A DNA stretch of 64,000 nucleotides from a virus (IMGVR_UViG_3300005683_000050:85669-149668); one strand, 5' to 3'. Positions 5,639 through 18,450 are shown, counted from the stretch's first letter. Numbers and translations: made by a program. The notes: a model not told the origin generated them from the sequence alone.

Positions 5639-6019
5639 TTATACCTGTCGTCTTTCGACCAACAGCATAACTCCAACGTCGAAAACTGGGGATGTTCCAG
5701 CGAGTGTCGCAATTGCGCGGACATATCGCTTGTTTGTGCGGAAGTGAATCTCTTCGTTTCCAGTCGTTGTCAGCTGCGTAAATGCCGCACCAGTAATATC
5801 GGTGTACGATGCAGTACTGTCCGCTTCTTGGATTTTAACGTCCATCGTTGGGGATGTGCCGCTTACGCCCGTTGCTGAAATAAAAGCCTTCATCATGCGA
5901 CCACCAGGATTGATGTATCCCTTTAGGTCAACATCACTACCAGTTGCAGAGGCAGACTTGCGAGCTGCAACGAACAGCTCGACAATCTTCATATTGGATT
6001 GTGTAGACATATAATTCAC
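5639..6019 (-). CDS. hypothetical capsid-associated (decoration?) protein 126 aa
   Basis: immediately downstream of MCP and its terminator hairpins; Thr/Ser/Gly-rich. Confidence 0.3.
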   Translation of the reverse strand: MNYMSTQSNMKIVELFVAARKSASATGSDVDLKGYINPGGRMMKAFISATGVSGTSPTMDVKIQEADSTASYTDITGAAFTQLTTTGNEEIHFRTNKRYVRAIATLAGTSPVFDVGVMLLVERRQV

Positions 6020-6068
6020 CTTTTTTCAAGGACTCATCTAGTTTCCTAGCGTCAAGGCCTCAAAAGTT

Positions 6069-6085
6069 ACTGTCTGTATAGACAG
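6069..6085. repeat. CTGTCT-N4-AGACAG palindromic hairpin motif
   Basis: ACTGTCT-gtat-AGACAG between the MCP stop and the next gene, next to a second hairpin. Confidence 0.6.
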
Positions 6086-6092
6086 AAAATGC

Positions 6093-6120
6093 CGTAGAAC
6101 TTTTAGCAGCTCTACGGCAG
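6093..6120 (-). terminator. post-MCP hairpin (partial terminator/attenuator)
   Basis: GCCGTAGA-N11-TCTACGGC followed on the minus strand by ATTTTCT. Confidence 0.4.
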
Positions 6121-6205
6121 TCGTTTTCATCAAGAAACAATTGTCTCTTGTTTTTTTTCATTATGGGGCATGAGATACATGCCCCAATCGTTCATTGCGT
6201 TCAGG

Positions 6206-7225
6206 TTATGTAGAAACCTTCTGTACGCGTGTTCTCCAGCTTTCAACCAACTGACCACCAACGCGCTTGCGGGCGAGCAAGAGGGTCACGTTTGTTTCGG
6301 CATAGATTTCGCTCAGGCGTTGTACGCTCAAGCCTACGCGGTCACAAATCATGTAACCATTCAAGTCACCAAACAACAATGGATAGGCGTTAGCGGCAAT
6401 GTCTGGCGCGAATTCGTCAATCTGGATTGGCTTACCCTTAATGTTGTCAAACTGTGGTGTTGCCAAAGAACCATTGACTAGCGATGAAATAATGTATCGG
6501 TTCTGTGAATCCTTCAGTTTCTCAATTGCCTTTTGGGTAGCACTGTTCATGTACCACTTTGCCTTTGCTCGATACTGCGCTGGCAATCCAAAGTACAAGT
6601 CAAGAATACCGTCTGCGGTCAAAGCTGAACCGCTACCAGACACAATGCTCGCTGGGCCATCGCCATCAACCTGCGACAACAGACCCATTGGGCGAGCTGC
6701 GCCGTTACCGTTCAGGAACGCATCATCTTCGCCAAGCGCAAATGCTTCTGCAATCAAGTCAGACGAAATACCAACAACATCAAATGCAGAATCTTCAATC
6801 AAGTCATTGCTAACTGGCATTGAAGCCATCGCCGTGTGTACTGGAATAACGTACAGACCGAAAACTGGGTCAGTGACGCGGTGTGTGGTTGAAGACGCTG
6901 GTGATTCACCAGTCCATGTCAAGCGCACACCTGAGGTATACTTGTCGTCGGTTGTGTACTTTACGCGTGGCCACTTTGCAACATCACGTGAGGTTTGGAC
7001 AACGCGCGCGTTTGGACGAATCGCGGTCAAACCAGCAACCTTCTTGATTAATTCGACGTGATAATCTTCTGGAACTAAAACTACGCAGTGTTCCAAACTT
7101 TCGTTTGGGTATGGACTATATCTTAACGAGTCTTTAGCGCATTCTGCTGTTTCAACTTTTGCATTACTGCATCTCGTTTTTCGCGTGTAGTCTCTGAAGC
7201 TCCCGTTGCTTGTAATGCCCTGCAT
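6206..7225 (-). CDS. major capsid protein, HK97 fold (true start probably TTG near 7096)
   Basis: C-terminal ...TADGILDLYFGLPAQYRAKAKWYMNSATQ... typical HK97-family MCP; the first 100 nt of the track ORF overlap the upstream endonuclease gene. Confidence 0.75.
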   Translation of the reverse strand: MQGITSNGSFRDYTRKTRCSNAKVETAECAKDSLRYSPYPNESLEHCVVLVPEDYHVELIKKVAGLTAIRPNARVVQTSRDVAKWPRVKYTTDDKYTSGVRLTWTGESPASSTTHRVTDPVFGLYVIPVHTAMASMPVSNDLIEDSAFDVVGISSDLIAEAFALGEDDAFLNGNGAARPMGLLSQVDGDGPASIVSGSGSALTADGILDLYFGLPAQYRAKAKWYMNSATQKAIEKLKDSQNRYIISSLVNGSLATPQFDNIKGKPIQIDEFAPDIAANAYPLLFGDLNGYMICDRVGLSVQRLSEIYAETNVTLLLARKRVGGQLVESWRTRVQKVST

Positions 7226-7719
7226 TGCTCGACTATATCTAACTCCCTTTTAGTGTATGGGTGTATTTTTCTCTGCCCCATCCCACCGTAATTCGGATTT
7301 TCAAGACCTTCGTTTTTCTTTCTGAGGTCTATAAATTCCATCATTAGTCTAGCTCTCTGCTTTTTATTACCAACCAGATACGGTTCTATCTTTGGAAGTA
7401 TCTTTAATAGATTGGTCATATTTTTGGTAGCGCATTCGTGAACTGGTCGGTTGATTCCCTTTTGGAGTCTAGTCCGCATATACGGGTTGATTCCCATTTT
7501 TCTGAATATATCTTCCGATTTGGCGATTATTTCTGGGTCTGTATTCACTATGCGTAGTTCGCATTTTACCTGCGTGCCGTTTGCTCGGCGCGGGTCTGTG
7601 AAAACAGTAAACCCTAACCATCCTTCGCCATCTACAATTCCCGCTACCCATCCAAGCTCATACTCGGTTGCCTGCTGATTGTCCATTTTACTATCCTTTC
7701 GTTTGTTGCCTAGAAGCAC
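7123..7719 (-). CDS. free-standing LAGLIDADG homing endonuclease
   Basis: LGWVAGIVDGEGWLGF motif; inserted between scaffold and MCP genes. Confidence 0.55.
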   Translation of the reverse strand: MLLGNKRKDSKMDNQQATEYELGWVAGIVDGEGWLGFTVFTDPRRANGTQVKCELRIVNTDPEIIAKSEDIFRKMGINPYMRTRLQKGINRPVHECATKNMTNLLKILPKIEPYLVGNKKQRARLMMEFIDLRKKNEGLENPNYGGMGQRKIHPYTKRELDIVEQCRALQATGASETTREKRDAVMQKLKQQNALKTR

Positions 7720-7817
7720 GATTGGCTCTTAGGAGTTTCCAGCATTTAGCGAAATTTAAGGTGAACTTTTGTTCCCTTAGATTATCATATTTAATTTTTA
7801 AGTCTTACTTTACTTAC

Positions 7818-8303
7818 TTATGCCCAACCTGCATATTGGGTTAATCCACCAGCCGTATCAACGCCTTCGCTCAAGGCCTTGCGGTCATTCGGGCCTAGTT
7901 TTTCTTTGCCATTGCGGATGTACGCTTCAAAAGCAACATCGTATCCCTTTTGCTGAACAGCCAGTGGAATGTGATAGCGCAATTCCTTTTCGCCGTTTGC
8001 AGTCATAACCTTCATAGAACGCCATGACTTTGCGTCAATCGGGAAGTTTCCTTCGTCTGCGGCAGACTGTCTCCATGAGACCTGCGAAACCGATGGCTCG
8101 CTAGCTCCCAAGAATTCATCGCCACTTTCGATACGCTGTGCAAGATTTGCCTTAGCAATCAACGTATCGTACTCGCCCAGTAGTCTTTGGACGTTACCTT
8201 CTTGTTCTGCGGTAATGGCATCACCCGCCTCGAACATAATCTTTTTTGCTTCGGCGTGCTTTGACGTAGCTTCCGCCATCAGCTCTCTTCGTGTCTTAGC
8301 CAT
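7818..8303 (-). CDS. putative scaffolding protein (162 aa from ATG 8303)
   Basis: ATG 8301-8303 with AGGAG SD; charged helix-rich N-terminus; the track start at 8417 overlaps the protease gene. Confidence 0.4.
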   Translation of the reverse strand: MAKTRRELMAEATSKHAEAKKIMFEAGDAITAEQEGNVQRLLGEYDTLIAKANLAQRIESGDEFLGASEPSVSQVSWRQSAADEGNFPIDAKSWRSMKVMTANGEKELRYHIPLAVQQKGYDVAFEAYIRNGKEKLGPNDRKALSEGVDTAGGLTQYAGWA

Positions 8304-8313
8304 AAATCTTCTC

Positions 8314-9474
8314 CTAAATATGTAATGCTCGTTCGCGTATTGCGATTTCGAGTGCCAAACGACGAGAAGAAGTGAGTGCGTTTGCGATAGTATCGAGAGA
8401 GTAGGTCTCAACGACATTTTCTGTCATATCATCCTCATCTGGTTCTACCTCTATCTGCGGCTCGGCTTCTAGCAAAACATCTGTAAGCACAGAAATTGCG
8501 TCTTTCAATCTTGCCAAGTTGCGTTCCGACAAAACCCTGCCTACCTTAAATTCTTCAATTGTCAACAGGCTAGTTAGGTTGGCAAACTCAACAACGTGCC
8601 AAGATGGAGACTCTTTACCGAACTGACTGAAATGTTTTGCAAGGTGATTGTATACACCCTGCTTGTCACTATCTGTCAAAGACTTACCAGAGTCCTTCAT
8701 CAATGCGGTCATAGCTGCATTTACTCCGTCCCATATGGCAAGTCCAATGCCAGACTTTGATGGAATGTGGTGTGGGAATTGCAAATCCTCAAACGCGGAC
8801 GGTATCTCTTTTCCAGACCATCCGTAGTGTTCTGAGATTCTAATCTTTTCACCGTCATCTAAGTCTGACCATTCTTTTTCTGTAAAATCGCTCAACACTG
8901 GAGGATTCATTTTTACTGTAGTATCTGGTTCAAATCCAGTGTCTTTGAAATCAATTGCGGCTGACTTTATCAAAACCCTTGCGGCATCGTTCATCCCCCA
9001 GTTCACTGGAGAAATATCCCATAGTCGGCACTCTCTGATATTTCTGATATTAACTGTTTTTCCGTCAATACTATGTGGGGCATAGTCGTATTTGATTGCC
9101 TCAAACCCAATAGAGTTTTCGGTAATTGCGCCTTCTTTGATGCCAGTCAATACTTCATTGCCGCGCGGTGTGTTTATGTACTTTACAACACCGAGTAATC
9201 CACCCATTGCATCTGGGAATTGACCCAGATAACTATCTGGTAGCTGCTCTCTCGATATTTCCCGCAGCTCCACTGGGACTCCAATTGGAGGAGACATGGT
9301 ATCGTGTTGCCACAAAACCTTTACCCTATCCGCGCGTTCCAAAAGCGTCTTAGTAAACGCTCCGAGCAACATACGGTCTAGCGCATTATCAATATGTCCA
9401 GCAACAGAATACAGAGACGTTACTTCTCTATCTTCCGATGCAATGACTTTACTTTGAAAGTTTTTATACTCCAT
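8314..9474 (-). CDS. prohead protease (HK97/S78-like) with long C-terminal extension
   Basis: N-terminal ...RVKVLWQHD... protease-family motif; position between portal region and scaffold/MCP. Confidence 0.55.
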   Translation of the reverse strand: MEYKNFQSKVIASEDREVTSLYSVAGHIDNALDRMLLGAFTKTLLERADRVKVLWQHDTMSPPIGVPVELREISREQLPDSYLGQFPDAMGGLLGVVKYINTPRGNEVLTGIKEGAITENSIGFEAIKYDYAPHSIDGKTVNIRNIRECRLWDISPVNWGMNDAARVLIKSAAIDFKDTGFEPDTTVKMNPPVLSDFTEKEWSDLDDGEKIRISEHYGWSGKEIPSAFEDLQFPHHIPSKSGIGLAIWDGVNAAMTALMKDSGKSLTDSDKQGVYNHLAKHFSQFGKESPSWHVVEFANLTSLLTIEEFKVGRVLSERNLARLKDAISVLTDVLLEAEPQIEVEPDEDDMTENVVETYSLDTIANALTSSRRLALEIAIRERALHI

Positions 9475-9482
9475 TGATTGTC

Positions 9483-9524
9483 CTTATAAAAAAACGCCAA
9501 TGAGTGCTAATGCTCAATGGCGTT
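9483..9524 (-). terminator. long hairpin + T7 (terminator/attenuator upstream of the protease gene)
   Basis: AAACGCCA...TGGCGTTT outer stem with inner TGAG/CTCA pairing, followed on the minus strand by TTTTTTT. Confidence 0.45.
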
Positions 9525-9791
9525 TGTTCCTTTACTCGATATTGCAGGCATCGGTGTTATATACTTTACTATACTGCCACACCGATTACACTTGATTTCG
9601 ATACGTATTATACCAAAAATACTGTTAACATGGAATAATTTTTTATTGCATTCTGGACATCTTACGTCCTTGTCCGATATATATGTCATCGCATCAGTCT
9701 CCTTAGCGCATTTTGATATATATCCAGAACTCCACTGGTTGACTTGCGGAGGACTTGTTGTATCGTATACCACCTTCCGCGATGTATCCAC
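9507..9791 (-). CDS. zinc-ribbon protein 94 aa
   Basis: CPECNKK...CNRCGS paired Cys motifs. Confidence 0.35.
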   Translation of the reverse strand: MDTSRKVVYDTTSPPQVNQWSSGYISKCAKETDAMTYISDKDVRCPECNKKLFHVNSIFGIIRIEIKCNRCGSIVKYITPMPAISSKGTNAIEH

Positions 9792-10093
9792 GTTTGAGGC
9801 CCAAGACCACCGACACGACTATCACTAATAACCCACGGAGCGTATGACGTTGGGTTGCTCAGCGAGACTGCATACCCATTGGAAACTGGAGTCACGCTCC
9901 CCTTAAAGTTTTTCTCTAACTTTTGGGTGCGAACATAGTTTTCTGTTGGTGGAGGCGGCGGCGGAACTTGTGACTTCAGGTAACGCGCCGTGTCCGCGGA
10001 CGCGCCTTTCAATGCTGTTTTAGTTCCGCTAGACATACCGTTCAGGCGATTCATTACGCCCGTTAACCCCTTGACCTGATAACTGATTTGCAC
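9686..10093 (-). CDS. hypothetical protein 135 aa (Pro-rich)
   Basis: minus ORF; overlaps 9507-9791 in another frame, so its extent is uncertain. Confidence 0.3.
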   Translation of the reverse strand: MQISYQVKGLTGVMNRLNGMSSGTKTALKGASADTARYLKSQVPPPPPPTENYVRTQKLEKNFKGSVTPVSNGYAVSLSNPTSYAPWVISDSRVGGLGPQTWIHRGRWYTIQQVLRKSTSGVLDIYQNALRRLMR

Positions 10094-10374
10094 TAACTGG
10101 TCTTCTTCCTCTTAACGCCGACCACGAGTTCTGCGTCTGGGTCTGCTTTCAAAATTGCAATCAGTTGAATTAAAGCCTCTTCGATGTTGTCAAGTCTGAC
10201 CTTAATCTCACTCATCGTTTTTGCTTCGTTTGCACGCTGTAATTTTACTTCATTCAGTCCATTCTCGAAATTCATAAGGATTCTCCATAGTAGGAATGAG
10301 GAAACGACGGTCAGAAAAAATACGCCGACCAGTGAGAAGTACTGCGATGCTTGAATTACTGTGTAATTATTCAC
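10093..10374 (-). CDS. small membrane/coiled-coil protein 93 aa
   Basis: N-terminal TM helix then charged helix. Confidence 0.35.
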   Translation of the reverse strand: MNNYTVIQASQYFSLVGVFFLTVVSSFLLWRILMNFENGLNEVKLQRANEAKTMSEIKVRLDNIEEALIQLIAILKADPDAELVVGVKRKKTS

Positions 10375-10429
10375 GACCTGTCTCCATTGCTTTTATTTTA
10401 ACACAAAAATACAATACTCTATCTATTTA

Positions 10430-12160
10430 TTACACCTTTACTATCTCTATACCGTATTCTACATGTTGCTTCAGTGGCAGTCCTAGACCCCTTACCTCAC
10501 AATCGCCTACTCGAATTGAATACGGCCCAACCTGACCGCGTTGCGGGTCAAAACTCGAATCTCCAGACATGTCGAAATCAACCATTCCGTTCCGAGTGTG
10601 GTGAATTGCCTTGTCGTCAGGCCAAACCTGAGTCACTGGGACTTTCCATAGTAACTTTCCATTTCCATCTGAAACGGAAACCATAATCTTAACTCCGCCC
10701 TGAGACTCTGGATAGTCTACTGGCTTATTATCATAAAAGTGAACAGCCGAGACCTTATACCCACTTCCCTGTGTAACGCTGACCCACGTTAGACGCTTGT
10801 CTACTTCAACCATCCACTCTTCAGACTTAACAGTGACTTGCCCCTTTACAATTTCACCGAAGAAACTTCCGCTATAGTCTCTCAATTGACCTTCAAAACG
10901 ATACACACCGTCTCGGAATGGAGCTGAAATCATTAAATTAAATCGGTATGACTCATTTGGTTTCACTTCCGAGTTGGAAGGGACTGCCTGCCATGATATT
11001 TCATTGTTGGATGTCGGACTTAGAGCGACATTGCCCCATGCAACATTACCAGTATTGGTCATAGATACCATACTAGCAACGGTTTCCCCTGTCCACACAG
11101 TTGACGGTACGCCGTATAACTCTAGCTCTGCATCATACTCAACTCCAGACGGTGGAGGCGGAACGTCGCTGTCTTCCCAACCAAACTGCCTAATATAAGG
11201 CAAGTCCATTTCCATCTTCTGAATAAGGTCTGATTTGAAAACGTTTGGATTTGAATGTTCGTCGGCATGAGCTGGGTCAGAGTGTAAACCATCAACCCAT
11301 GAATCAGAATACCAGTTTCCAGCCCACAAAAGCCACGGACACACAGCAAATAAATAGTCTGGTAATCTCTCTCCATTACTTAATTTGCCGACCCTAAACC
11401 ACTCATACATTTCGTAATGCCAGTCAATCCACTTCTCAATTGATACCTCTGGCATACTGGTATCGTCGTGATTCTTGAATAACCAGCCACCCTCTCCTCC
11501 AATCATGGGCGGAATAATTCCGAGATGCTTTTCGCACCATCCAGCTATGGCTATAAACCTCAAAACAGCTGTGTCGTCTTCATACACATTGCTTGATGGG
11601 TATGGATAAATTGGCGGATGATTTGCCCCGTAGTTGTGCAAAGAGAAGTACATTTTGTTTTTGACTTCTTTAGATACACCACTGACAGACGCCAAAAGCT
11701 CTTCCGACAATACTTGTAGTCCAGGAAATCCACCTCCACGTACAACGGCTTCTGCACGTTGACCCCATAGTGAAGCAAAATGTTCTGGACTATCGAATCC
11801 CTCTCTGCCATCCTCTGGTTCATTGAAGATTTGAATGTATGGCGGCACTCCGTTCTTTACAGATAGCTGCGCGAATTTTTCCCAAAAGTCTGGGGTCTTT
11901 GGTCGTTCTCCACTGGCATACACTCGCATATTAGAGAATATGCCAAAATTGTCTTTAAGATATTTTGCAACCCGTATACATTGTGCCTCATCCCCGCCAT
12001 ATACTGTAGCCCATTTTATTTTCATGCGCTTAAGATACGGTGCATAATGTTCCACAAACGGCTGGCGAGAATCTAGCACGAAATGAATCCCTCGTCCGTT
12101 ATCTCCCTCTGGACGCGGAAAGCTAGCCAAGTGACTATCTAGTGGTGATAATTGTGTCAT
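10430..12160 (-). CDS. GH5-like glycoside hydrolase with C-terminal beta-sandwich/carbohydrate-binding-like region
   Basis: IQIFNEPE (NEP acid/base) and MIGGEGGW (nucleophile-like) motifs in N-terminal ~330 aa; 576 aa. Confidence 0.5.
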   Translation of the reverse strand: MTQLSPLDSHLASFPRPEGDNGRGIHFVLDSRQPFVEHYAPYLKRMKIKWATVYGGDEAQCIRVAKYLKDNFGIFSNMRVYASGERPKTPDFWEKFAQLSVKNGVPPYIQIFNEPEDGREGFDSPEHFASLWGQRAEAVVRGGGFPGLQVLSEELLASVSGVSKEVKNKMYFSLHNYGANHPPIYPYPSSNVYEDDTAVLRFIAIAGWCEKHLGIIPPMIGGEGGWLFKNHDDTSMPEVSIEKWIDWHYEMYEWFRVGKLSNGERLPDYLFAVCPWLLWAGNWYSDSWVDGLHSDPAHADEHSNPNVFKSDLIQKMEMDLPYIRQFGWEDSDVPPPPSGVEYDAELELYGVPSTVWTGETVASMVSMTNTGNVAWGNVALSPTSNNEISWQAVPSNSEVKPNESYRFNLMISAPFRDGVYRFEGQLRDYSGSFFGEIVKGQVTVKSEEWMVEVDKRLTWVSVTQGSGYKVSAVHFYDNKPVDYPESQGGVKIMVSVSDGNGKLLWKVPVTQVWPDDKAIHHTRNGMVDFDMSGDSSFDPQRGQVGPYSIRVGDCEVRGLGLPLKQHVEYGIEIVKV

Positions 12161-13140
12161 ACTTTTAATTCCTTTGTTGTTAGAAACACATTTGCTCCGT
12201 CAGTGTATGCAATTGCGGCAATCTTATCTGAGCTGGCAATACTGGGAGACTGATTATTTAGTGAGTTATTTGAAATCAGTTTGGCGTTACTCCACTTCCC
12301 ATTCTTAAGGGAGATGGTGTATATTTTCCAGTTGTCGGTTGACACAGATTTTGCCTGAAAAGATACTTGTACAGCCCCTTCAAAAAATGCAACTCTAGGC
12401 CACATACTGTAAAGAAATGACGGGATAGTGCTACGCGAATCTGTAAATACCATTGTCTTGAAATCAGAGTATCTAGTCACCGCAAAAAACGGATTTCCAT
12501 ACTCGGTGTGGAATACATCTGGCGTCTGTTCCTTATGCCCGTCAGAAATCACAGACTCAACACCCCAAGTATTATTGACCGTATCGAATCTTATACTAAG
12601 AACTCCATATGGACTATTCTCGCTCCACACTATGTCAAGAAAGTTGTCTCGATATGAGATTCTTGGCATACTCCCGTCTCCAAACTTTACGGGAACATCC
12701 CAAGTTGCCCCGTTGTCTCTACTGGAAACCATATACACACCAGACGCTTGTCCTACTGGTCTAGATTGAAACACAACATATATGTTAGGCCCATCTGAAA
12801 CAATTTGCGGACACTCTGCATATGGCAAGCTGCCAGAAATCTTTTTTAGACTCCTACTTGGGGATAAGTATACAACAACATATCCCAGTGTGTCATGCTT
12901 GGATTCCCATACGATATGACGACTTCCGTTATGTGTTATGTCTGGGTAGTATCCGTGTCCAATAGATTCTCGTGTATTGTTTCCCTTACGGGACTCACAC
13001 TGCATTATATTGTCACCATCGTTCCACACAGAGAAAACCCTTCTGCCCCTTACACAGATAGAGATTTTACTATAGTGTCCTTCCCCAAGACTAACTGGCG
13101 AGTTCCATACCTTAAGCGCGTCAGATATTGCTCTTATCAT
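12157..13140 (-). CDS. BNR/Asp-box repeat beta-propeller protein (sialidase-like)
   Basis: SRDNGATWDV Asp-box (SxDxGxTW) plus repeated beta-strand-rich segments. Confidence 0.45.
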   Translation of the reverse strand: MIRAISDALKVWNSPVSLGEGHYSKISICVRGRRVFSVWNDGDNIMQCESRKGNNTRESIGHGYYPDITHNGSRHIVWESKHDTLGYVVVYLSPSRSLKKISGSLPYAECPQIVSDGPNIYVVFQSRPVGQASGVYMVSSRDNGATWDVPVKFGDGSMPRISYRDNFLDIVWSENSPYGVLSIRFDTVNNTWGVESVISDGHKEQTPDVFHTEYGNPFFAVTRYSDFKTMVFTDSRSTIPSFLYSMWPRVAFFEGAVQVSFQAKSVSTDNWKIYTISLKNGKWSNAKLISNNSLNNQSPSIASSDKIAAIAYTDGANVFLTTKELKV

Positions 13141-14443
13141 TTTGACTCTCCTCTTCCCCGCTTTGAGAATCTGATGAATTAGATTCTGGATTAACCTCTG
13201 GGCGTTGATTATCCATTGATACCTCTATGGTTCTCACGTTTCTAACATATACATCTCCGTCTGGTGTCTTTTCGAGACCCACTTCTTCGGCAAATTGATT
13301 TACTGTAATCGCTCCCTTTTCAAACGCGTTTGAAGCCCGCGCCCATCGCTTATCAATATCGTCCTGAAGTGCTGGAACTTTTGAGAAATCCCATTCCATG
13401 ATAACATTTAAGTCTTCATTCAGGTCGTTATTTATTTTATCAGAGATTCTCTTGTATTGTGGAGATAAGGTGTCCTGCCAAAACGCTTTTCTAGCAGCTT
13501 CATAATTGCTATAGGTTGACGCCTTTAACCCTATGCTTGCTCCGACCAAGATGGGAGGTGTTCTTAAACAGCTGCAAATTCTTGCCTCAGAACGAGCGTC
13601 CAGAAACTCAAATCCCATTTCTTCAAATGTCAAACCGATTTTCTGAAATTGTGCATCCGAGTCCAAAACTACTGGGTCTAGCCAATTTTCAAATCCACCG
13701 TATCGTTCCCTCCATCGAGAACGAATTTCCTCTACCTGAGACTCAATAAGCTTTTGCTTGGTTGTCAACATTCCTGGTGGAGTTCCACCCTTTTCAAAGA
13801 ACAGCTTTACAAAGTCAGTACTGGCATTGTCAACATCTCCCATCCGAGCTGCGACCTGAACGGGAGGAAGTCCATTATACATATTTGATGGGTCGAATAG
13901 CTTAAATTCAAGAATGCTGTCGGTTGGCATAACTATCGCTTGTAATCCAGGTGGGGCATAGCGGTATCCATCAATAAATGTTCCAGACGAACGTATCGGT
14001 GAAACCCAGTCTGGTCTCATAGGCCAAAGTTCTACTACTTTTCCAGACCTGTTTTTTACCTTTTCCCAGTAAGAGACTCCAGCTAAGTCCAAGTACATCA
14101 GTGTGGCACTGAAGAAGTCGAACTCTGTCATATATTTATTTGGTCGTTCTATCAACATACGAGTCGGATGGTTTTCTATAATGGCGCGTGAACGCCTGTC
14201 GCGCGCAACCAAACGTGGAATTGCTGCCGAATCCGCTTTTAAGGAAATACAGGCGAAAATTAGTTCGTTCTTTTTGAACCCATGCTGTACCGCATTCTCA
14301 AAATTCCATTTTTGGTACGATGGGGTCTGATTTGTCCATGAATTCAACATCGTAGATATTGCGTTCTGTTGCGTTGCCGCAGAACGCTTAAACGAAGAAC
14401 TGAATCCGCTTGCGAATCTGTCAAATATACTCATTAAAACCAA
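13121..14443 (-). CDS. portal protein (HK97-family-like)
   Basis: 440 aa, immediately downstream of TerL; acidic C-terminus; Phage_portal-like core. Confidence 0.7.
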   Translation of the reverse strand: MVLMSIFDRFASGFSSSFKRSAATQQNAISTMLNSWTNQTPSYQKWNFENAVQHGFKKNELIFACISLKADSAAIPRLVARDRRSRAIIENHPTRMLIERPNKYMTEFDFFSATLMYLDLAGVSYWEKVKNRSGKVVELWPMRPDWVSPIRSSGTFIDGYRYAPPGLQAIVMPTDSILEFKLFDPSNMYNGLPPVQVAARMGDVDNASTDFVKLFFEKGGTPPGMLTTKQKLIESQVEEIRSRWRERYGGFENWLDPVVLDSDAQFQKIGLTFEEMGFEFLDARSEARICSCLRTPPILVGASIGLKASTYSNYEAARKAFWQDTLSPQYKRISDKINNDLNEDLNVIMEWDFSKVPALQDDIDKRWARASNAFEKGAITVNQFAEEVGLEKTPDGDVYVRNVRTIEVSMDNQRPEVNPESNSSDSQSGEEESQNDKSNI

Positions 14444-16824
14444 ATCCCTCCCAAAGAACTATTTCCAGCAAGCTTCATATAAGCCCCACTACTTGCGTCT
14501 ACCATATCGTCGTGTACCCTCTTGTTTGGAAACAATTCGAGCTCTTGCAAATAATTTCGATTCCATCCAGCTTTAGCCAGATAAACATGTCGAGCCTCGC
14601 ACATCCCGCTAAACGGCTTTGCTCGGTGAACCTTTTGTCCAGTCATGCGAAAACCATCAAATATAAAATCTGGAAGAACATTTCTGCGATAGTGGTCAAT
14701 TACTGTCTTGCCACTTGCGCCAGGTTCTTGCTCGATATATATCTCTGTTTCATATCCATCTGCAACCGCGCATCTTTTAACCAGCTCTTCAACTTGGGAG
14801 GGAGTGCCTCGAAATTGCTGTACGTCCAGAATGTAAAATTCGTTTTGAGAAGATATTCCCATTAGCACTCCAGCTGTATAGTCGGGGTCGTTATTTCCAT
14901 AATCGGCAACTGTAGCAGCCAAGTCCCAATATCGAACTTTTCTAATAAGCGGAGGAAAGTTTTCAATTGGCGCGGTGTTCTGTCCGTCAAACCATTCCCT
15001 CTTAAACATCTCGCCTTGTTCTTCAATATCCCAGTCTCCAAACAAAAGCCTCGCTCTGGTTACTGGGTCTAACTCGGCAAGAAAACCAGCATATTCTTCT
15101 GCATTGATAGCTGGGTTGTCGTTGATAGTCGCTGGTATAAAGATGCGACCATTTGCGCGTCCCTCATCAATAAATCTCTTCTTGACCCAAACGTGACCTG
15201 GGCCACCAGGATTAGTAGCTGCCCGCATACGAAGCGGAACTTCAACGCCCTTAACGCGACGAATACGAGAAAACAGATATAAATACTGACTTTCTGTAAA
15301 CTGAGTCAATTCATCAAATCCGCAAAATTGTATTTCCGCACCCTGATAGCGCAGCTTATCTCTTTCACTCTCTAAGTATCCGAATGTTAGTGTTGCGCCA
15401 GAGGGAAAGGTGAACTGGTGCTTTTCCGAATCCCACCTTGCATCTGTTCCAGAAAGCCATTCAATCGCGCGAGACATAAGTGCTTGTGGCAACGAAAGGT
15501 CTCTGTAGGTTCTACGTAGTAAAAGAGCTGCGTATCCTGGTACGTCAACATATTGCAGGGCAGACATGAGAAGTGCGGAGCTGTTGTGCGTAACGATAAA
15601 GTCGTTTGTAAGATACATTCCGTTCGGATGGGAGACGGTTATACATCTTCCCCGCACAGTTCCGCCCTTTTCCACCCTAACAACCGCGCGGTATAGATTG
15701 TCGTCAACCTTACATCTTTCTGCCTTTCGCTTAATCCTAAACAGGGACGGCTCATTTCTATGTCTTATATATATCGTATAGGATAACCTTCCAAAGACCT
15801 TTTCTCCACTGGCGTCTCTATAGAATGGGTACTTTTCCGAAACAGTCGCAACCCCGCCCAGTGAGCGAACAATAAAACACACATCTTTGCACATTTGTTC
15901 GCTAGTTGTTGTGTAGTACACCTGCCCTCTTGCATCGGCAGTCCCATCAGTGTCTAGCAATCCTTGTAGTACGCTAAGTCTCGTTTTTACGCTTCCCATC
16001 AAAAACTCTCTGGGAACAAATTTTGTGTCCGATTTAGTTCCCATTAGTCCAAGTTTTTCTAGTTGAGACCTAACGGTTGACAAAGACTGTCCTTTGAGAA
16101 AGTACGAAAACTTACCGTCGTAGCGAAAGTCCATTCCCCTCAAAACGTTATCTCGAATGTGTTCGTGGTCATTCCCACTAATACTGACGGATTGACCAGA
16201 AATACATCCATCTCCCAGAATGTACCCCAACAGATACGGGTCTAGGTTGGATGGATTTCTGTTTGTTACGTTAAAAACTTGCTCGTGACACACTGGAATT
16301 AGAGGTCTTCTTGAAGAGCCATCGCGTTCGGAGCGAATCAGACTTTCGTCAGACCATTTCTTTAAGGTGAATGTATCTATTACCTGCGCGCTCTCCTCTC
16401 CAAACACTCTCTTGCCCTTTATCTTTTTCCCCTTACGCGCTCTCCAGCATACCCACAAATGCTCTCCGTTAACCTCTATTGAAGTTCCATCGTGAAAAAG
16501 TACCTTAAACTTTTCAAGTTCAAACACTGGATGGAGCTGTATTATCTTCGCAACCGTACCGTCTGGGTTATTTACAGCATCTCCAACGCGAAGGTCTTTT
16601 ATTTGCTTAAACCCAAACGGTGTCAGAACAAAGTCGTCAAGTTTTTGGCCTTTCCCGCCGCTTGCTGCGCCGCCAAATAGTACTTCCTTGTTTTGGGTCA
16701 ACAGAAACGCGGTTTGTTTGGGACTTGGTTTCTGAATGATGTACTTATTTAGTTTTGGAAAAAATTTGGTTACATCTATTTTGTCCCAATTGTCTCTAAT
16801 CGTTTCTGGGGTTATTATATTCAC
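14434..16824 (-). CDS. terL: terminase large subunit interrupted by an intein
   Basis: N-extein ends in FGGAASGGK (Walker A, completed by SS after the intein); C-terminal nuclease domain; 796 aa, of which about 355 are intein. Confidence 0.8.
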   Translation of the reverse strand: MNIITPETIRDNWDKIDVTKFFPKLNKYIIQKPSPKQTAFLLTQNKEVLFGGAASGGKGQKLDDFVLTPFGFKQIKDLRVGDAVNNPDGTVAKIIQLHPVFELEKFKVLFHDGTSIEVNGEHLWVCWRARKGKKIKGKRVFGEESAQVIDTFTLKKWSDESLIRSERDGSSRRPLIPVCHEQVFNVTNRNPSNLDPYLLGYILGDGCISGQSVSISGNDHEHIRDNVLRGMDFRYDGKFSYFLKGQSLSTVRSQLEKLGLMGTKSDTKFVPREFLMGSVKTRLSVLQGLLDTDGTADARGQVYYTTTSEQMCKDVCFIVRSLGGVATVSEKYPFYRDASGEKVFGRLSYTIYIRHRNEPSLFRIKRKAERCKVDDNLYRAVVRVEKGGTVRGRCITVSHPNGMYLTNDFIVTHNSSALLMSALQYVDVPGYAALLLRRTYRDLSLPQALMSRAIEWLSGTDARWDSEKHQFTFPSGATLTFGYLESERDKLRYQGAEIQFCGFDELTQFTESQYLYLFSRIRRVKGVEVPLRMRAATNPGGPGHVWVKKRFIDEGRANGRIFIPATINDNPAINAEEYAGFLAELDPVTRARLLFGDWDIEEQGEMFKREWFDGQNTAPIENFPPLIRKVRYWDLAATVADYGNNDPDYTAGVLMGISSQNEFYILDVQQFRGTPSQVEELVKRCAVADGYETEIYIEQEPGASGKTVIDHYRRNVLPDFIFDGFRMTGQKVHRAKPFSGMCEARHVYLAKAGWNRNYLQELELFPNKRVHDDMVDASSGAYMKLAGNSSLGGIWF
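15583..16650 (-). mobile_element. intein with LAGLIDADG homing-endonuclease domain inside the terL P-loop
   Basis: Hint block A-like KLDDFVLTPFGFKQIKDLRVGD; LAGLIDADG blocks LLGYILGDGCI and LQGLLDTDGT; C-terminal IVTHN followed by +1 Ser; the exact N-terminal junction is uncertain (no Cys/Ser at residue 1). Confidence 0.6.
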
Positions 16825-17341
16825 TAACCACTCCTGCTTGCACTAAAGTGTTAATTACCTCAGACAGTTCTTCTGGTGTAGGGATTGTTGAGACCACCAC
16901 ATCAACCGCTCCACCGTTCGCCCCAGTAATTTCCTGTTTTACAGAGTCTGTATTTACGCCGCGAGATAGTCTTTCTATTTTCACGGCAGTATCTATCCAT
17001 GCAGATATTTCTCTCGGACTTAATTCCATTGGGTCTAGTTCTTTGAGACGCTGAATGACCTTCTCTTGTAAACGCATTGCAATCTTGGCGTGTCGGTCTG
17101 CCATTTCAGCAACAGATTTGAGGTGAGCATCCCTGCGGATACGGTCTTGCTCCATATCCCACGCGCGACATCTCGCTACCCAGCTGTATTCAGAGCTCCA
17201 TCTGCGAATAAGGGACATGTTCTTTTCGGTTTGTTGAGATACTGCCTCAAGACTGCGCCCACTCCCAGAATCTCTATACAGAACAAACGCGGCAAAAGCT
17301 CGCGCTCCCTCTTCTTCTAATTGCTCATAGATTAACGACAT
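16796..17341 (-). CDS. putative terminase small subunit
   Basis: 181 aa ORF immediately upstream of terL, overlapping its start. Confidence 0.35.
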   Translation of the reverse strand: MSLIYEQLEEEGARAFAAFVLYRDSGSGRSLEAVSQQTEKNMSLIRRWSSEYSWVARCRAWDMEQDRIRRDAHLKSVAEMADRHAKIAMRLQEKVIQRLKELDPMELSPREISAWIDTAVKIERLSRGVNTDSVKQEITGANGGAVDVVVSTIPTPEELSEVINTLVQAGVVSEYNNPRND

Positions 17342-17955
17342 ACATATCCCTCATTACGAAGCTGATTAAGCAAAGATTCTTTTTGCTCGTCAGACTCACA
17401 CTCTACAGTTATTCTGTACACTGGAACGTCTCCATCCGTAGAGTTGTCCTCAGCTACACCCTTGTCTTCCTCAACGGCATTAATTATCCGACTGAGCAAA
17501 TCTACATCCTCCGAATCAGACGAAACTGGAAGGGTGTTATCTTCGTTTAGTGCCGTAAGGATTTCGGTGTAAACATTTTCGTCCCACAACTTTGCCATGT
17601 CGAGAGCAGTGAACTCTGCTCCCATTAATCCAATGTTGTTTGAATCTATTAAATAAGCCATTGCCTCGTTATCATCTCTGAACGAGACTCCGCGATGGAT
17701 TTGAGTTTGCCATCTACCATCTACAACTCTTACGCCATTAGGCACATTAGATGGATTGTGTGCAAACATACTCTGCAAGGTCTGAATCCGATTATGTCCA
17801 GCGACAAGTTTCTGTGTTTTTTCATTCAAGACTGGTTTCTCAACAAGACCATAACGCATAATTGATTCAAACATTGCGCCAACATCATGCTTCTTCGGGT
17901 TAACGTCAGCGAATTGAACTTCGTCAATAAACATCCACTCTAAGTGTTCTTCCAT
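17332..17955 (-). CDS. ParB-like nuclease domain protein
   Basis: KLVAGHNRIQTL resembles the ParB/Srx GxxR box; common partner of terminase genes. Confidence 0.4.
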   Translation of the reverse strand: MEEHLEWMFIDEVQFADVNPKKHDVGAMFESIMRYGLVEKPVLNEKTQKLVAGHNRIQTLQSMFAHNPSNVPNGVRVVDGRWQTQIHRGVSFRDDNEAMAYLIDSNNIGLMGAEFTALDMAKLWDENVYTEILTALNEDNTLPVSSDSEDVDLLSRIINAVEEDKGVAEDNSTDGDVPVYRITVECESDEQKESLLNQLRNEGYVCR

Positions 17956-18003: not shown

Positions 18004-18450
18004 TTATTTTAACACAAATCGGCGTTTTGTCTTAAGTTTTTGTTTAGACCTTAAAACATTTAGTCTACTTTTGGTTGCTGACTTTTTTCTGGATATAATT
18101 GACTCATACTTTGGGGCAAGGATTTCTTCTTTTCCGAAAGTAAGACCGTGACATTGCGCGCACAATGTTATCCCGTTATCGGTGACAAATCTCAGTTTTG
18201 GATACCTAGCCCACATCCGAATATGATGTGGATGTATTTCAACTCCGCGTTTGCCGCACTGCTGGCACGTATACTTATCCCTAAGAAATACGCGCTTTCT
18301 CCATGCGACAAACTTTGGACTATGGCGAGCTCGCTCATCTGCGTTCTCGAAGATAGGAAATACTTTTGATACCTTAATCCGAATCAAGTTTGCCTTGCGC
18401 CTGCATGACCATTTCCCTGTATTCCCTCGCTGGGACTGGTGATTTGGCAT
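18004..18450 (-). CDS. HNH endonuclease
   Basis: CQQCG...HPHHIRMW...CAQCH HNH/zinc motif. Confidence 0.65.
   Translation of the reverse strand: MPNHQSQRGNTGKWSCRRKANLIRIKVSKVFPIFENADERARHSPKFVAWRKRVFLRDKYTCQQCGKRGVEIHPHHIRMWARYPKLRFVTDNGITLCAQCHGLTFGKEEILAPKYESIISRKKSATKSRLNVLRSKQKLKTKRRFVLK

What the first reader, a model, noticed from the sequence alone, without database searches (positions are those of the whole stretch)
14434..16824. Intein with LAGLIDADG endonuclease in the terminase ATPase P-loop, plus a free-standing LAGLIDADG endonuclease overlapping the capsid gene start
The TerL Walker A is split (GGAASGGK | intein | SSALL), and the intein carries two LAGLIDADG blocks and a C-terminal HN. 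The N-terminal splice residue is not Cys/Ser, which may indicate a non-canonical (class 3-like) or inactive splice junction. A second LAGLIDADG gene (7123-7719) sits between scaffold and MCP, and its 3' end overlaps the annotated MCP start by 100 nt. The MCP therefore probably initiates at TTG 7096. With four HNH genes, the window is heavily colonised by homing endonucleases.
Basis: partly seen in the sequence, partly recalled or inferred. Interest (0 to 1): 0.55.

Follow-up and report, generated by a model that had tools for sequence, protein, structure and literature searches.

The report
Terminase intein plus capsid-gene intron
This phage's DNA-packaging enzyme carries a self-excising protein insert (a class 3 intein) and its capsid gene is split by a self-splicing group I intron, both well-known kinds of selfish element, so the second endonuclease is not a free-standing gene.

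Summary
The intein half of the finding is confirmed and sharpened. TerL (14434-16824, minus strand) carries a 356-aa insert (15583-16650) exactly between the Walker A Lys and Ser. The closest homologue is 440 aa, equal to the predicted spliced length. The insert has every sequence hallmark of a class 3 intein: Gly1, His64/Trp66, Cys336, Thr354-His355-Asn356 and Ser+1. It also has two LAGLIDADG motifs, and a confident model matches PI-SceI and the class 3 DnaB intein. Relatives sit at the same site in five deposited phages, including TaPaz, where it is published.

The capsid half is misread. The "scaffold" ORF and the "MCP" ORF are exon 1 and exon 2 of one HK97-type capsid gene. A 763-nt group I intron (7843-7081) splits Phe154, and the LAGLIDADG ORF lies inside it. 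Uninterrupted homologues (444 aa, 89% identical) match the spliced product end to end. The ribozyme core covaries across nine related introns. TTG 7096 lies in the intron's P9 hairpin and is not a start codon.

Both elements are new members of known kinds. Mycobacteriophage LittleE has the same pairing, with its capsid intron at the same motif. No splicing was tested experimentally. Interest is modest.

The parts
14434..16824 (-). TerL precursor ORF, 796 aa (N-extein + intein + C-extein)
   Evidence: Pfam Terminase_6N matches only from aa 437 onward. Terminase_6C matches aa 632-784.
16651..16824 (-). TerL N-extein, aa 1-58, ending in the Walker A motif GGAASGGK
   Evidence: G51, G52, A53, A54, G56, G57 and K58 are invariant in the alignment with 7 intein-less homologues.
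15583..16650 (-). Class 3 intein, 356 aa (TerL aa 59-414), with an embedded two-motif LAGLIDADG homing endonuclease
16453..16461 (-). Block B His64-Leu65-Trp66 (His B10, Trp B12 of the WCT triplet)
   Evidence: His64 is invariant and Trp66 nearly invariant in 48 relatives. Trp is present in 116 of 121 aligned sequences.
16207..16233 (-). LAGLIDADG motif 1 (LLGYILGDG, intein residues 140-148)
   Evidence: G146-D147-G148 is nearly invariant.
15943..15969 (-). LAGLIDADG motif 2 (LQGLLDTDG, intein residues 228-236)
   Evidence: Pfam LAGLIDADG_3 scores 38.5 bits against a cutoff of 22.5. D235 and G236 are invariant.
15643..15645 (-). Block F Cys336, the predicted class 3 nucleophile (F4)
   Evidence: It is invariant in 48 relatives and present in 120 of 121 aligned sequences.
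15583..15591 (-). Block G Thr354-His355-Asn356 (Thr G5, penultimate His, terminal Asn)
14434..15582 (-). TerL C-extein (starts with Ser+1, SSALL...; includes the stop codon)
   Evidence: S415 is invariant. The rest of the ATPase domain and the nuclease domain align without gaps at the junction.
7844..8303 (-). MCP exon 1 (ATG 8303; aa 1-153 plus the first base of codon Phe154).
   Evidence: it aligns to aa 1-153 of the uninterrupted protein P0121; a Shine-Dalgarno AGGAG lies 7 nt upstream of the ATG.
7081..7843 (-). Group I intron, 763 nt, from the base after U7844 to omega-G 7081
7760..7770 (-). Internal guide sequence AAAA-GUUCACC. AAAA pairs with the 3' exon UUUU (P10). GUUCACC pairs with the 5' exon GGUGGAU (P1), with U.G at the splice site.
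   Evidence: it is the only 11/11 site in the intron. L118 has a guide in the same position that covaries with its exon.
7739..7754 (-). P3 5' strand UUUCGC (7754-7749), J3/4 UAAA, and P4 5' strand UGCUGG (7744-7739)
7123..7686 (-). Intron-encoded single-motif LAGLIDADG endonuclease, 187 aa from ATG 7686. The listed ORF begins at GTG 7719.
   Evidence: The best PDB match is I-MsoI, E=1e-5. The start MDNQQAT is conserved in 30 loci.
7673..7678 (-). P4 3' strand UCAGCA, inside codons 3-5 of the intron ORF
7113..7193 (-). 3' catalytic core, in order: J6/7; P7 5' strand (GACUA); P3 3' strand (GCGAAA, 7184-7179); P8 (AACGAG...CUCGUU, 7178-7125); J8/7 (AAGAUA); P7 3' strand (UAGUC)
   Evidence: (RF00028 half-hit, 23.5 bits).
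7093..7108 (-). P9 hairpin CCAAAC-GAAA-GUUUGG.
6206..7080 (-). MCP exon 2 (last two bases of codon Phe154, then aa 155-444 and the stop)
   Evidence: it aligns to aa 155-444 of P0121. Pfam Phage_capsid E=2.8e-52.

Best explanation
Two independent self-splicing mobile elements interrupt two essential late genes. (1) TerL is made as a 796-aa precursor. A 356-aa class 3 intein sits between the Walker A Lys58 and Ser415. It cannot start splicing with residue 1, which is Gly. Instead the block F Cys336 is predicted to attack the Lys58-Gly59 peptide bond and form a thioester branch. The N-extein then moves to Ser+1, Asn356 cyclises to release the intein, and an O-to-N shift restores GGAASGGK-SSALL. 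The result is an active 440-aa terminase. The LAGLIDADG domain inside the intein would cut intein-less TerL alleles and so spread the element. (2) The capsid gene is transcribed as exon 1, a 763-nt group I intron, and exon 2. The guide sequence pairs with both exon ends. Guanosine-initiated splicing joins ...GGA U to UU UUA..., which restores codon Phe154 and gives a 444-aa HK97-type capsid protein. The intron's own I-CreI/I-MsoI-like LAGLIDADG enzyme would cut intron-less capsid alleles. What is shown: the insertions, their exact boundaries, the conserved catalytic residues, the fold, and covariation of the ribozyme helices. What is inferred: that both elements actually splice, the class 3 chemistry, and endonuclease activity.
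For: Intein. Of the candidates scored, 7733 TerL homologues pass E<=1e-10; the 120 best listed are 395-579 aa and none approaches 796 aa. The closest, P0001, is 82% identical and exactly 440 aa. The alignment places the gap precisely between the invariant K58 and S415. Gly1, His64/Trp66, Cys336, Thr354-His355-Asn356 and Ser+1 match the class 3 definition (PMC2807308). Five deposited phages have 355-407 aa inteins at the same site, with residue 1 = A, A, A, L or V and invariant HLW, xCI and VTHN. Among 120 relatives, W is present in 116, C in 120, THN in 120, and +1 is T in 100 and S in 20. Residue 1 varies across these relatives (A in 73, S in 21, with G, C, Q, D, V, I, F and L in the rest; G, I, V, Q, A and S among those in TerL). 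The AF2 model has pLDDT 95.2. It matches PI-SceI at E=2e-18 and the class 3 DnaB intein 6BS8 at rmsd 1.0 A over 67 columns. Intron. The exon 1 ORF aligns to aa 1-153 of P0121 and the exon 2 ORF to aa 155-444. The spliced CDS gives 444 aa, 89.2% identical to P0121 without a gap. A syntenic relative, L103, has the empty site. Two RF00028 half-hits flank the ORF. ORF-less introns that share the core score 95-105 bits. In nine distinct relatives, 95.7% of cells pair against 27-43% in slid controls, 11 of 23 pairs have compensatory changes, and 0 of 500 shuffles reach the score. L118 is a second HK97-type MCP split at the same codon and phase, and its guide covaries with its exon.
Against: No splicing product was observed for either element. 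The window's intron does not reach the Rfam gathering score: 25 and 23.5 bits against 50. MFE folding of the 5' region pairs the guide with an internal AAGGGAAC (-9.0 kcal/mol) and not with the exon (-8.7 kcal/mol). The 73-nt P1 loop is unusual compared with most relatives. An 11/11 guide site arises in about 3% of shuffles. Pfam finds no Hint or intein-splicing domain in TerL, only the endonuclease domains. Gly at position 1 is rare in the clade: 3 of 108 relatives where residue 1 could be mapped.
Confidence: 0.87

Rival explanations
1. One reading: the LAGLIDADG gene is a free-standing homing endonuclease lying between a scaffold gene and a separate MCP gene, and the MCP initiates at TTG 7096 (or at ATG 7225).
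For: Three separate ORFs exist. Many phages do encode separate scaffold and capsid proteins (general knowledge). TTG 7096 is in frame with exon 2.
Against: The closest homologues are single 444-445 aa proteins that cover both ORFs. The junction restores a split Phe codon in the consensus GGFLVPE. TTG 7096 lies in the P9 stem with no Shine-Dalgarno. The flanking RNA is a covarying group I core.
Confidence: 0.04
2. The intein is degenerate and inactive, so this TerL allele is dead, or the insert persists as an unspliced domain.
For: There is no N-terminal nucleophile. Gly1 is uncommon in the clade. Pfam detects no Hint domain.
Against: Every residue needed for class 3 splicing is present and conserved. 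An unspliced insert would sit inside the Walker A loop of an essential ATPase. [quoted passage not shown] The ORF is intact with no frameshifts. The model is a well-formed HINT plus LAGLIDADG fold.
Confidence: 0.05
3. The intein splices by a non-class-3 route, for example direct attack of Ser+1 on the N-terminal junction (class 2, KlbA-like), and Cys336 plays only a structural role.
For: Sequence alone cannot show which nucleophile acts. Class 2 inteins also lack an N-terminal nucleophile (PMC2807308).
Against: Tori et al. describe the KlbA inteins as Ala1 inteins that lie outside the WCT group, and Mja KlbA has Cys+1. This intein has the full WCT triplet and Ser+1, the combination that requires the block F Cys in MP-Be DnaB. 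Its closest solved splicing domain is a class 3 intein.
Confidence: 0.05
4. The intron is present but splices poorly or conditionally, because the internal pseudo-P1 hairpin sequesters the guide sequence. Capsid output would then be throttled or regulated.
For:: the competing hairpin is as stable as P1. L118 carries a similar GGGAAC element.
Against: [quoted passage not shown] The energy difference is only 0.3 kcal/mol, and tertiary contacts are not modelled.
Confidence: 0.08

Closest known systems
Class 3 inteins: mycobacteriophage Bethlehem DnaB intein (the prototype, PMC2807308) and the M. smegmatis DnaB1 intein (PDB 6BS8)
   Same: Non-nucleophilic residue 1, Trp at B12, Cys at F4, Thr at G5, terminal His-Asn and Ser/Thr at +1. 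The splicing domain superposes on 6BS8 (rmsd 1.0 A over 67 columns, 31% identity).
   Different: The host protein is TerL, not DnaB. Residue 1 is Gly (Pro in MP-Be). 6BS8 is a 139-residue chain with no endonuclease match, whereas this intein carries a full two-motif LAGLIDADG domain. Sequence identity is low outside the splicing blocks.
Large-terminase intein of Acinetobacter phage TaPaz gp49 (residues 35-388; PMC8228797), with relatives in Aphanizomenon phage CL131, Parabacteroides phage PF672P1, Thiohalocapsa phage MD04 and Pseudoalteromonas phage HM1
   Same: Same insertion point (GGK | intein | S/T), similar size, same HLW / xCI / VTHN signature, and the same LAGLIDADG motifs.
   Different: Only about 30% identical over TerL as a whole. 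Residue 1 differs. The TaPaz paper assigns no class, and in four of the records the gene is not annotated as containing an intein.
Mycobacteriophage TerL inteins (Kelley et al. 2016, PMC5050341)
   Same: TerL is the most common intein host in mycobacteriophages. Site TerL1-a lies between the P-loop Lys and the Thr nucleophile, the 'classic' P-loop site. Class 3 inteins occur in TerL (sites c, d, e). These inteins splice, and some have active endonucleases.
   Different: Those P-loop inteins are in Terminase_1-type TerL. In that survey the Terminase_6-like TerL had only site f, in the C-motif. The present TerL is Terminase_6-type with a class 3 intein at the P-loop.
PI-SceI (VMA1 intein) and the TliVMA intein
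   Same: Bipartite HINT plus LAGLIDADG architecture. These are the best fold matches (E=2e-18, TM 0.6-0.69).
   Different: These were crystallised as C1A variants (7qss, 7qsu), so they start with Cys, unlike Gly1 here; I take them to be class 1 (my own knowledge). Identity is only 16-18%.
Mycobacteriophage LittleE capsid intron (Pope et al. 2013, PMC3706429). Tuc2009, cited there, also has a capsid intron.
   Same: An intron of about 0.8 kb in an HK97-type capsid gene, carrying an I-CreI-like LAGLIDADG ORF. U precedes the 5' splice site and G ends the intron. The splice falls in the same conserved motif (GTGGY|AVP there, TAGGF|LVP here). Cluster J terminases, LittleE's included, also carry likely inteins.
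   Different: In LittleE the ORF is drawn as transcribed leftwards. [quoted passage not shown] The host phages are unrelated. I did not test whether the two introns are homologous.
I-MsoI / I-CreI homodimeric LAGLIDADG endonucleases
   Same: A single LAGLIDADG motif (LGWVAGIVDGEG), about 170-190 aa. I-MsoI is the best PDB sequence match, E=1e-5. That these enzymes are intron-encoded is my own knowledge.
   Different: The match is weak (Pfam LAGLIDADG_1 scores 17.8 bits against a cutoff of 23.1). This protein's first 7 codons and its SETTRE segment are also ribozyme core sequence.

Membership tests
Intein (HINT self-splicing domain) | An in-frame insertion that is absent from orthologues, at a conserved site of the host protein | tested here: met
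   a 356-aa gap in 7 aligned homologues, between the invariant K58 and S415. P0001 is exactly 440 aa.
Intein (HINT self-splicing domain) | HINT fold of the N- and C-terminal splicing regions | tested here: met
   AF2 pLDDT 95.2. Foldseek finds PI-SceI, TliVMA, PI-PfuI, DnaB, gp41-1 and Prp8 inteins and hedgehog Hint. Pfam itself gave no Hint hit.
Intein (HINT self-splicing domain) | Block B His; C-terminal His-Asn; Ser, Thr or Cys at +1 | tested here: met
   His64, His355-Asn356 and Ser+1. These are invariant in relatives.
Intein (HINT self-splicing domain) | Protein splicing demonstrated (ligated exteins plus free intein) | not testable with these tools
   This needs expression followed by western blot or mass spectrometry.
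Class 3 intein (Tori et al. 2010) | [quoted passage not shown] | tested here: met
   Gly1. The junction is fixed by the invariant GGK and S[SDE]ALL motifs.
Class 3 intein (Tori et al. 2010) | WCT triplet: Trp at block B position 12, Cys at block F position 4, Thr at block G position 5 | tested here: met
   Trp66 (His64 + 2), Cys336 in RCI, and Thr354 (Asn356 - 2). Conservation is W 116, C 120 and T 120 of 121.
Class 3 intein (Tori et al. 2010) | [quoted passage not shown] | tested here: met
   Ser415. Relatives have T in 100 and S in 20.
Class 3 intein (Tori et al. 2010) | Obligate block F Cys nucleophile (thioester branched intermediate) | not testable with these tools
   This needs a C336A mutant and trapping of the intermediate.
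Class 1 (standard) intein | Cys, Ser or Thr at intein position 1 | tested here: not met
   Position 1 is Gly.
Class 2 (KlbA-type) intein | Ala1 and no WCT triplet; Cys+1 in the studied example (Mja KlbA), which attacks the N-terminal junction directly | tested here: not met
   This intein has Gly1, Ser+1 and the full WCT triplet.
Two-motif LAGLIDADG homing endonuclease (intein-borne) | Two LAGLIDADG motifs, each with a conserved acidic residue, and the corresponding fold | tested here: met
   Pfam LAGLIDADG_3 scores 38.5 bits against a cutoff of 22.5. D147 and D235 are conserved. The fold matches the endonuclease domains of PI-SceI and I-DmoI.
Two-motif LAGLIDADG homing endonuclease (intein-borne) | Site-specific cleavage of the intein-less allele | not testable with these tools
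   The candidate target is the empty site in L106.
Group I intron (Rfam RF00028) | Reaches the Rfam gathering score (50 bits) | tested here: not met
   Two half-hits of 25.0 and 23.5 bits lie on either side of the ORF that fills the P6 loop; about 470 nt separate P6 5' from P6 3'. ORF-less introns with the same core score 95-105 bits.
Group I intron (Rfam RF00028) | U at the end of the 5' exon paired with G of an internal guide (P1); the guide also pairs with the 3' exon (P10); G is the last intron base | tested here: met
   U7844.G7766, GGUGGAU/GUUCACC, UUUU/AAAA and G7081. L118 covaries: A.U becomes G.C at position -2. Caveat: a hairpin competes for the guide.
Group I intron (Rfam RF00028) | Conserved core: P3, P4, P6, P7, P8, P9, the J8/7 consensus, and the P3/P7 pseudoknot | tested here: met
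   P3 pairs in 96% of cells (5 of 6 pairs compensatory), P7 in 100%, P8 in 87% (5 of 6 compensatory). P4 never varies, so it is uninformative. J8/7 is AAGAUA. P9 has a GAAA loop.
Group I intron (Rfam RF00028) | Removal restores the host reading frame exactly | tested here: met
   the spliced product is 444 aa and 89.2% identical to P0121 without a gap.
Group I intron (Rfam RF00028) | Guanosine-dependent self-splicing | not testable with these tools
   This needs an in vitro transcript incubated with GTP, or RT-PCR.
Single-motif LAGLIDADG endonuclease (I-CreI / I-MsoI type) | One LAGLIDADG motif in a protein of about 160-190 aa, with recognisable homology to the family | tested here: inconclusive
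   The motif LGWVAGIVDGEG is present in a 187-aa protein. I-MsoI matches at E=1e-5. Pfam LAGLIDADG_1 scores 17.8 bits, below its cutoff of 23.1.
Free-standing homing endonuclease gene | Lies between genes and not inside an intron or intein | tested here: not met
   ORF 7686-7123 lies entirely within the intron 7843-7081.

The most novel reading that the evidence does not exclude
The capsid intron belongs to a previously undescribed modular family of phage group I introns, with about 30 loci sharing AUGGACAAUCAGCAGGCAAC. Members sit at capsid-like gene sites of at least two unrelated families. In this family the endonuclease ORF and the ribozyme are physically interleaved. The ORF's Shine-Dalgarno is the P5 3' strand. 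Codons 1-7 are P5'/P4'/P6. The peptide SETTR(E) is J6/7-P7-P3'. In the HK97-capsid members an internal pseudo-P1 hairpin competes with the distant exon for the guide sequence. Together these features would make ribozyme folding and endonuclease translation mutually exclusive, and would provide a switch that times capsid production against intron homing. In parallel, the intein's redox-sensitive Cys336 could gate terminase activation.
Probability: 0.15. Interest if true: 0.55.

Novelty: new member of a known kind. Interest (0 to 1): 0.3.

Why it matters
The main value is correct annotation. The case also adds a Terminase_6-type, class 3, P-loop example to the catalogue of terminase inteins. It shows that the GG[FY]xVP motif of HK97-type capsid genes is a recurrent intron target (this window, L118 and LittleE). 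And it gives a compact set of nine covarying introns and about 120 WCT inteins that could seed better detection models. It does not reveal a new mechanism.

Tried and rejected
- Megablast of 6000-17500 against deposited phages found no match, so no close cultured relative exists.
- Rfam at gathering threshold over the whole window found only 39 tRNAs and no intron. The intron showed up only at relaxed E-value, as two half-hits.
- Rfam at E<=0.01 on L004-L006 found nothing, although these carry the same intron family.
- tblastn of the spliced MCP against deposited phages gave only distant hits (below 60% identity), each in one unsplit piece.
- DNA patterns for the same intron at the same capsid site found nothing in metagenome or viral contigs. 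The window's own contig is evidently not in those collections.
- The look-up of encoding contigs for P0124 returned 'not on record', so the source sample stays unknown.
- Tori & Perler 2011 (PMC3133030) is not held.
- The ungapped TerL nucleotide identity (0.44) is out of register because of small codon indels, and I disregard it.
- MFE folding of the intron's 5' region did not reproduce P1. I kept P1 because of the L118 covariation and the family-wide position of the guide, and I report the conflict.
- phmmer with two HNH ORFs as queries found no further paralogues, so I did not locate the third and fourth Pfam HNH hits.
- I considered an intein in the capsid gene and rejected it, because the three ORFs are in different frames with stop codons between them.

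Full report
OBSERVATION. Pfam sees Terminase_6N only from TerL residue 437, Terminase_6C at residues 632-784, and LAGLIDADG_3 at residues 283-336. The window has no close DNA relative among deposited phages. It carries 39 tRNA genes.

THE TERMINASE INSERT IS AN INTEIN. I searched with the hypothetical spliced sequence (N-extein 1-58 plus C-extein 415-796). Of the candidates scored, 7733 pass E<=1e-10. The 120 best listed are 395-579 aa, and none approaches 796 aa. The best, P0001, is 82% identical and exactly 440 aa, which is the predicted spliced length. In an alignment with seven homologues the window has one 356-residue insertion, bracketed by the invariant G51-G52-A53-A54-x-G56-G57-K58 and S415-x-A417-L418-L419. 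No other register keeps both the Walker A Lys and the following Ser, so the junctions are unambiguous: the intein is TerL 59-414, window 15583-16650(-). A syntenic relative (L106: 181-aa ORF, TerL 440 aa, portal) shows the empty site, with 41 of 60 nt identical around it.

IT IS A CLASS 3 INTEIN. Tori et al. define class 3 by five features (PMC2807308):
- a non-nucleophilic residue 1
- Trp at block B position 12, two residues after the block B His
- Cys at block F position 4
- Thr at block G position 5, two residues before the terminal Asn
- Thr or Ser at +1

The intein has Gly1, His64-Leu65-Trp66, Cys336 (in RCI, as in KCI of the prototype), Thr354-His355-Asn356 and Ser+1. Sequence search of the PDB aligns the splicing blocks with the M. 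smegmatis DnaB1 intein 6BS8 and with gp41-1 entry 6RIZ. Entry 6RIZ turns out to be a C1A/F65W/D107C variant, meaning it carries the class 3 Trp and Cys.

Five deposited phages carry 355-407 aa inteins at the identical site: TaPaz, CL131, PF672P1, Thiohalocapsa MD04 and Pseudoalteromonas HM1. Their residue 1 is A, A, A, L or V, and HLW, xCI and VTHN|S/T are invariant. The TaPaz intein is published as residues 35-388 of gp49, without a class (PMC8228797).

Among the 120 best relatives of the intein alone, Trp is present in 116, Cys in 120, Thr-His-Asn in 120, and +1 is Thr in 100 and Ser in 20. Residue 1 is mostly Ala (73) but also S, G, C, Q, D, V, I, F and L. Among the TerL-resident relatives it is G, I, V, Q, A or S. 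A position that variable is unlikely to supply the nucleophile in most members, which is what class 3 predicts.

An AlphaFold2 model built on 48 relatives is confident (pLDDT 95.2, pTM 0.93). It matches PI-SceI (E=2e-18, TM about 0.67), the TliVMA intein, PI-PfuI and I-DmoI. Its splicing domain matches 'the class 3 DnaB intein from M. smegmatis' at rmsd 1.0 A over 67 columns. Both LAGLIDADG motifs (residues 140-148 and 228-236) keep their acidic residues, and G146-D147-G148, D235-G236 and K210 are conserved across relatives. The endonuclease is therefore probably active, but that is an inference.

The ORF is intact and all catalytic residues are conserved. [quoted passage not shown]

THE CAPSID REGION IS ONE GENE SPLIT BY A GROUP I INTRON. 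The 'scaffold' ORF ends ...KALSEGVDTAGG-LTQYAGWA*, and Pfam Phage_capsid begins only at residue 49 of the 'MCP' ORF (VLVPEDYH). A search with the hypothetical fusion found uninterrupted proteins: P0121 (444 aa, 89%), P0122 (444 aa, 83%) and P0123 (445 aa, 82%), each covering 100% of the query. It also found a 296-aa fragment that is 100% identical, on a 149,668-bp JGI contig. That fragment appears to be this genome's own truncated gene call.

The exon 1 ORF aligns to P0121 residues 1-153 and the exon 2 ORF to residues 155-444. The missing residue 154 is Phe in all homologues (…TAGGFLVPE…). Joining 8303-7844 to 7080-6206 gives 1335 nt and 444 aa, 89.2% identical to P0121 without a gap. A Shine-Dalgarno AGGAG lies 7 nt upstream of ATG 8303. 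The junction is GGA U|…G|UU UUA, so U precedes the 5' splice site and G ends the intron. L103 is a syntenic relative (329-aa, 575-aa, 96-aa and 135-aa ORFs, protease, then MCP of 444 aa). It shows the empty site, with 50 of 60 nt identical.

THE RIBOZYME. Rfam at relaxed threshold gives two RF00028 half-hits, 7483-7802 (25 bits) and 7092-7344 (23.5 bits), on either side of the ORF. The gathering score is not met, and I record that as a failed formal test. The cause is probably the ORF that fills the P6 loop, with about 470 nt between P6 5' and P6 3'. Read directly from the sequence, the elements are:
- guide AAAA-GUUCACC (7770-7760)
- P3 UUUCGC/GCGAAA
- P4 UGCUGG/UCAGCA
- P7 GACUA/UAGUC
- P8 AACGAG/CUCGUU
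- J8/7 AAGAUA
- P9 CCAAAC-GAAA-GUUUGG
- omega-G at 7081

The core motif GAGACUACA…AAGAUAUAGUCC occurs in 86 viral contigs, and ORF-less examples score 95-105 bits against RF00028. The ORF start AUGGACAAUCAGCAGGCAAC is shared by 8 viral and 22 metagenomic loci.

I took helix strands at fixed offsets from invariant anchors in nine distinct members. In those, 95.7% of cells pair, against 27-43% when partners are slid by 1-3 columns. Eleven of 23 pairs show changes on both sides (5 of 6 in P3, 5 of 6 in P8, 1 in P7). The covariation score is 0.548 against 0.163 in shuffles, and 0 of 500 shuffles reach it. P4 never varies, so it says nothing either way.

P1 AND ITS CAVEAT. The guide is the only 11/11 site in the intron, but about 3% of shuffles of the first 100 nt produce one. 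MFE folding pairs the guide with an internal AAGGGAAC (-9.0 kcal/mol), not with the exon end 73 nt upstream (-8.7 kcal/mol). In relatives L095, L053 and L093, a short hairpin with a U.G pair sits directly before P3.

The decisive support for P1 is L118. It is a second, distantly related HK97-type capsid gene (…ESQDVFGG|F|LVPEDFRDMV…). Its only in-frame U|…G| junction that yields the consensus GGFLVPE splits the same codon in the same phase. Its guide GCCCACC also lies 5 nt before P3 and covaries with its exon GGUGGGU: A.U becomes G.C at position -2. It also has a long P1 loop of about 100 nt, with a GGGAAC before the guide. I therefore accept P1 and leave the competing hairpin unexplained.

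THE INTRON ORF. From ATG 7686 the ORF encodes 187 aa with one LAGLIDADG motif (LGWVAGIVDGEG). Its best PDB match is I-MsoI (E=1e-5). Pfam LAGLIDADG_1 is below its cutoff. The ORF is interleaved with the ribozyme:
- Its Shine-Dalgarno AAGGAU is the P5 3' strand.
- Codons 1-7 (MDNQQAT) are P5'/P4'/P6.
- The peptide SETTRE translates UCA GAG ACU ACA CGC GAA, which is J6/7-P7-P3'.
- The stop codon lies in J8/7.

COMPARISON WITH WHAT IS KNOWN.
- TerL is the commonest intein host in mycobacteriophages. The Lys|Thr P-loop position is called the classic insertion site. Class 3 inteins occur in TerL, and TerL inteins splice in reporters (PMC5050341; bioRxiv 10.1101/2025.01.02.630785).
- In the 2016 survey, Terminase_6-like TerL had only a C-motif site. 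A Terminase_6-type P-loop class 3 intein therefore extends the catalogue, but TaPaz and the other four deposited phages already carry it.
- Capsid-gene introns are known in Tuc2009 and LittleE. The LittleE intron (819 bp, I-CreI-like ORF) splices within GTGGY|AVP, the same motif as here. Cluster J terminases, LittleE's included, also carry likely inteins (PMC3706429).
- By analogy with Omega and LittleE, exon 1 here probably encodes mostly the delta (scaffolding) domain.

VERDICT. The intein is confirmed and assigned to class 3 by sequence, fold and family conservation. The 'free-standing' endonuclease is reinterpreted as intron-encoded inside a split capsid gene. Both are new members of known kinds. 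No splicing was tested experimentally. Interest is 0.3.

Noticed in passing
window 7686-7123 and 7700-7113 (- strand): The intron ORF and the ribozyme share sequence. The Shine-Dalgarno AAGGAU is the P5 3' strand. Codons 1-7 (MDNQQAT) are P5'/P4'/P6. The peptide SETTRE is J6/7-P7-P3'. The stop codon is in J8/7. The same MDNQQAT start is conserved in 30 loci, and the SETTR peptide recurs in L053 and L096.
   Followed up: partly
window 7779-7760 (- strand): An internal hairpin, AAGGGAAC-AAAA-GUUC(A)CCUU, sequesters the guide sequence. It is as stable as the real P1 (-9.0 against -8.7 kcal/mol). It sits where relatives have their short P1. L118 has a similar GGGAAC element.
   Followed up: partly
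L118 (Ga0129336_10190882), whole locus: A second, distantly related HK97-type capsid gene is split at the same Phe codon and phase by an 823-nt intron of the same family. Together with LittleE, this suggests that GG[FY]xVP is a recurrent intron target.
   Followed up: partly
L095/L098/L004/L006 and L097/L005: The same intron family interrupts a capsid-like gene of a different family (…NNIIEVKNDLEKQKG | DTITVGLTAKLS…). L093 carries a 309-aa ORF in place of the single-motif one; by eye it has two LAGLIDADG-like motifs.
   Followed up: partly
P0248-P0360 (relatives of the intein): The WCT intein clade occupies two different extein contexts. One is after the Walker A G-K in many ATPase families (TerL, PhoH, RecA, DnaB, AAA_24, helicases). 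The other is after a PhoH 'MRGR' motif followed by Thr. This is consistent with extein switching between nucleotide-binding sites.
   Followed up: partly
window 7231-7241 and 7504-7514 (- strand): Two extra near-copies of the J8/7-P7 motif AAGATATAGTC lie inside the LAGLIDADG ORF. The window has 5 matches against 1.17 expected. Only the copy at 7114-7124 has matching P7, P3', P8 and P9.
   Followed up: no
window 24536-58643 (- strand): There are 39 tRNA genes. The window also has ORFs matching RtcB, Thg1, RNA ligase and a cytidylyltransferase-like domain, which together look like a tRNA supply and repair module. It also has ThyX, a class II ribonucleotide reductase with weak E-values, RNase H, ferritin-like, NUDIX and two DNA methylases.
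   Followed up: no
window 10430-12160 and 12157-13140 (- strand): Two large ORFs with no Pfam match lie between the portal and prohead protease genes. They are conserved in the same position in relatives L103 and L106. The 327-aa ORF contains an Asp-box-like SRDNGATW (seen by eye only).
   Followed up: no
window 18004-18450 and 25695-26027 (- strand): Two ORFs carry an HNH motif; Pfam HNH was confirmed for 18004-18450 (E=7.2e-07), the other was found by motif only. Pfam counts 3 HNH and 1 HNH_5 among the 66 ORFs scanned. I did not locate the others.
   Followed up: partly
P0124 (JGI contig of 149,668 bp): A 296-aa capsid fragment in the public collection is 100% identical to exon 2 (from LEHCVVLVPE…). 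It is apparently this genome's own gene call, so the capsid gene would be mis-annotated there because of the intron.
   Followed up: partly
L012, L039, L044, L051, L063: The group I core pattern occurs twice, about 230-380 nt apart, in each of these viral contigs. This suggests two introns close together in one gene.
   Followed up: no
L057 1605-1660 (- strand): A Glutamine-II riboswitch (60 bits) lies about 500 nt from a compact group I intron in an unrelated viral contig.
   Followed up: no
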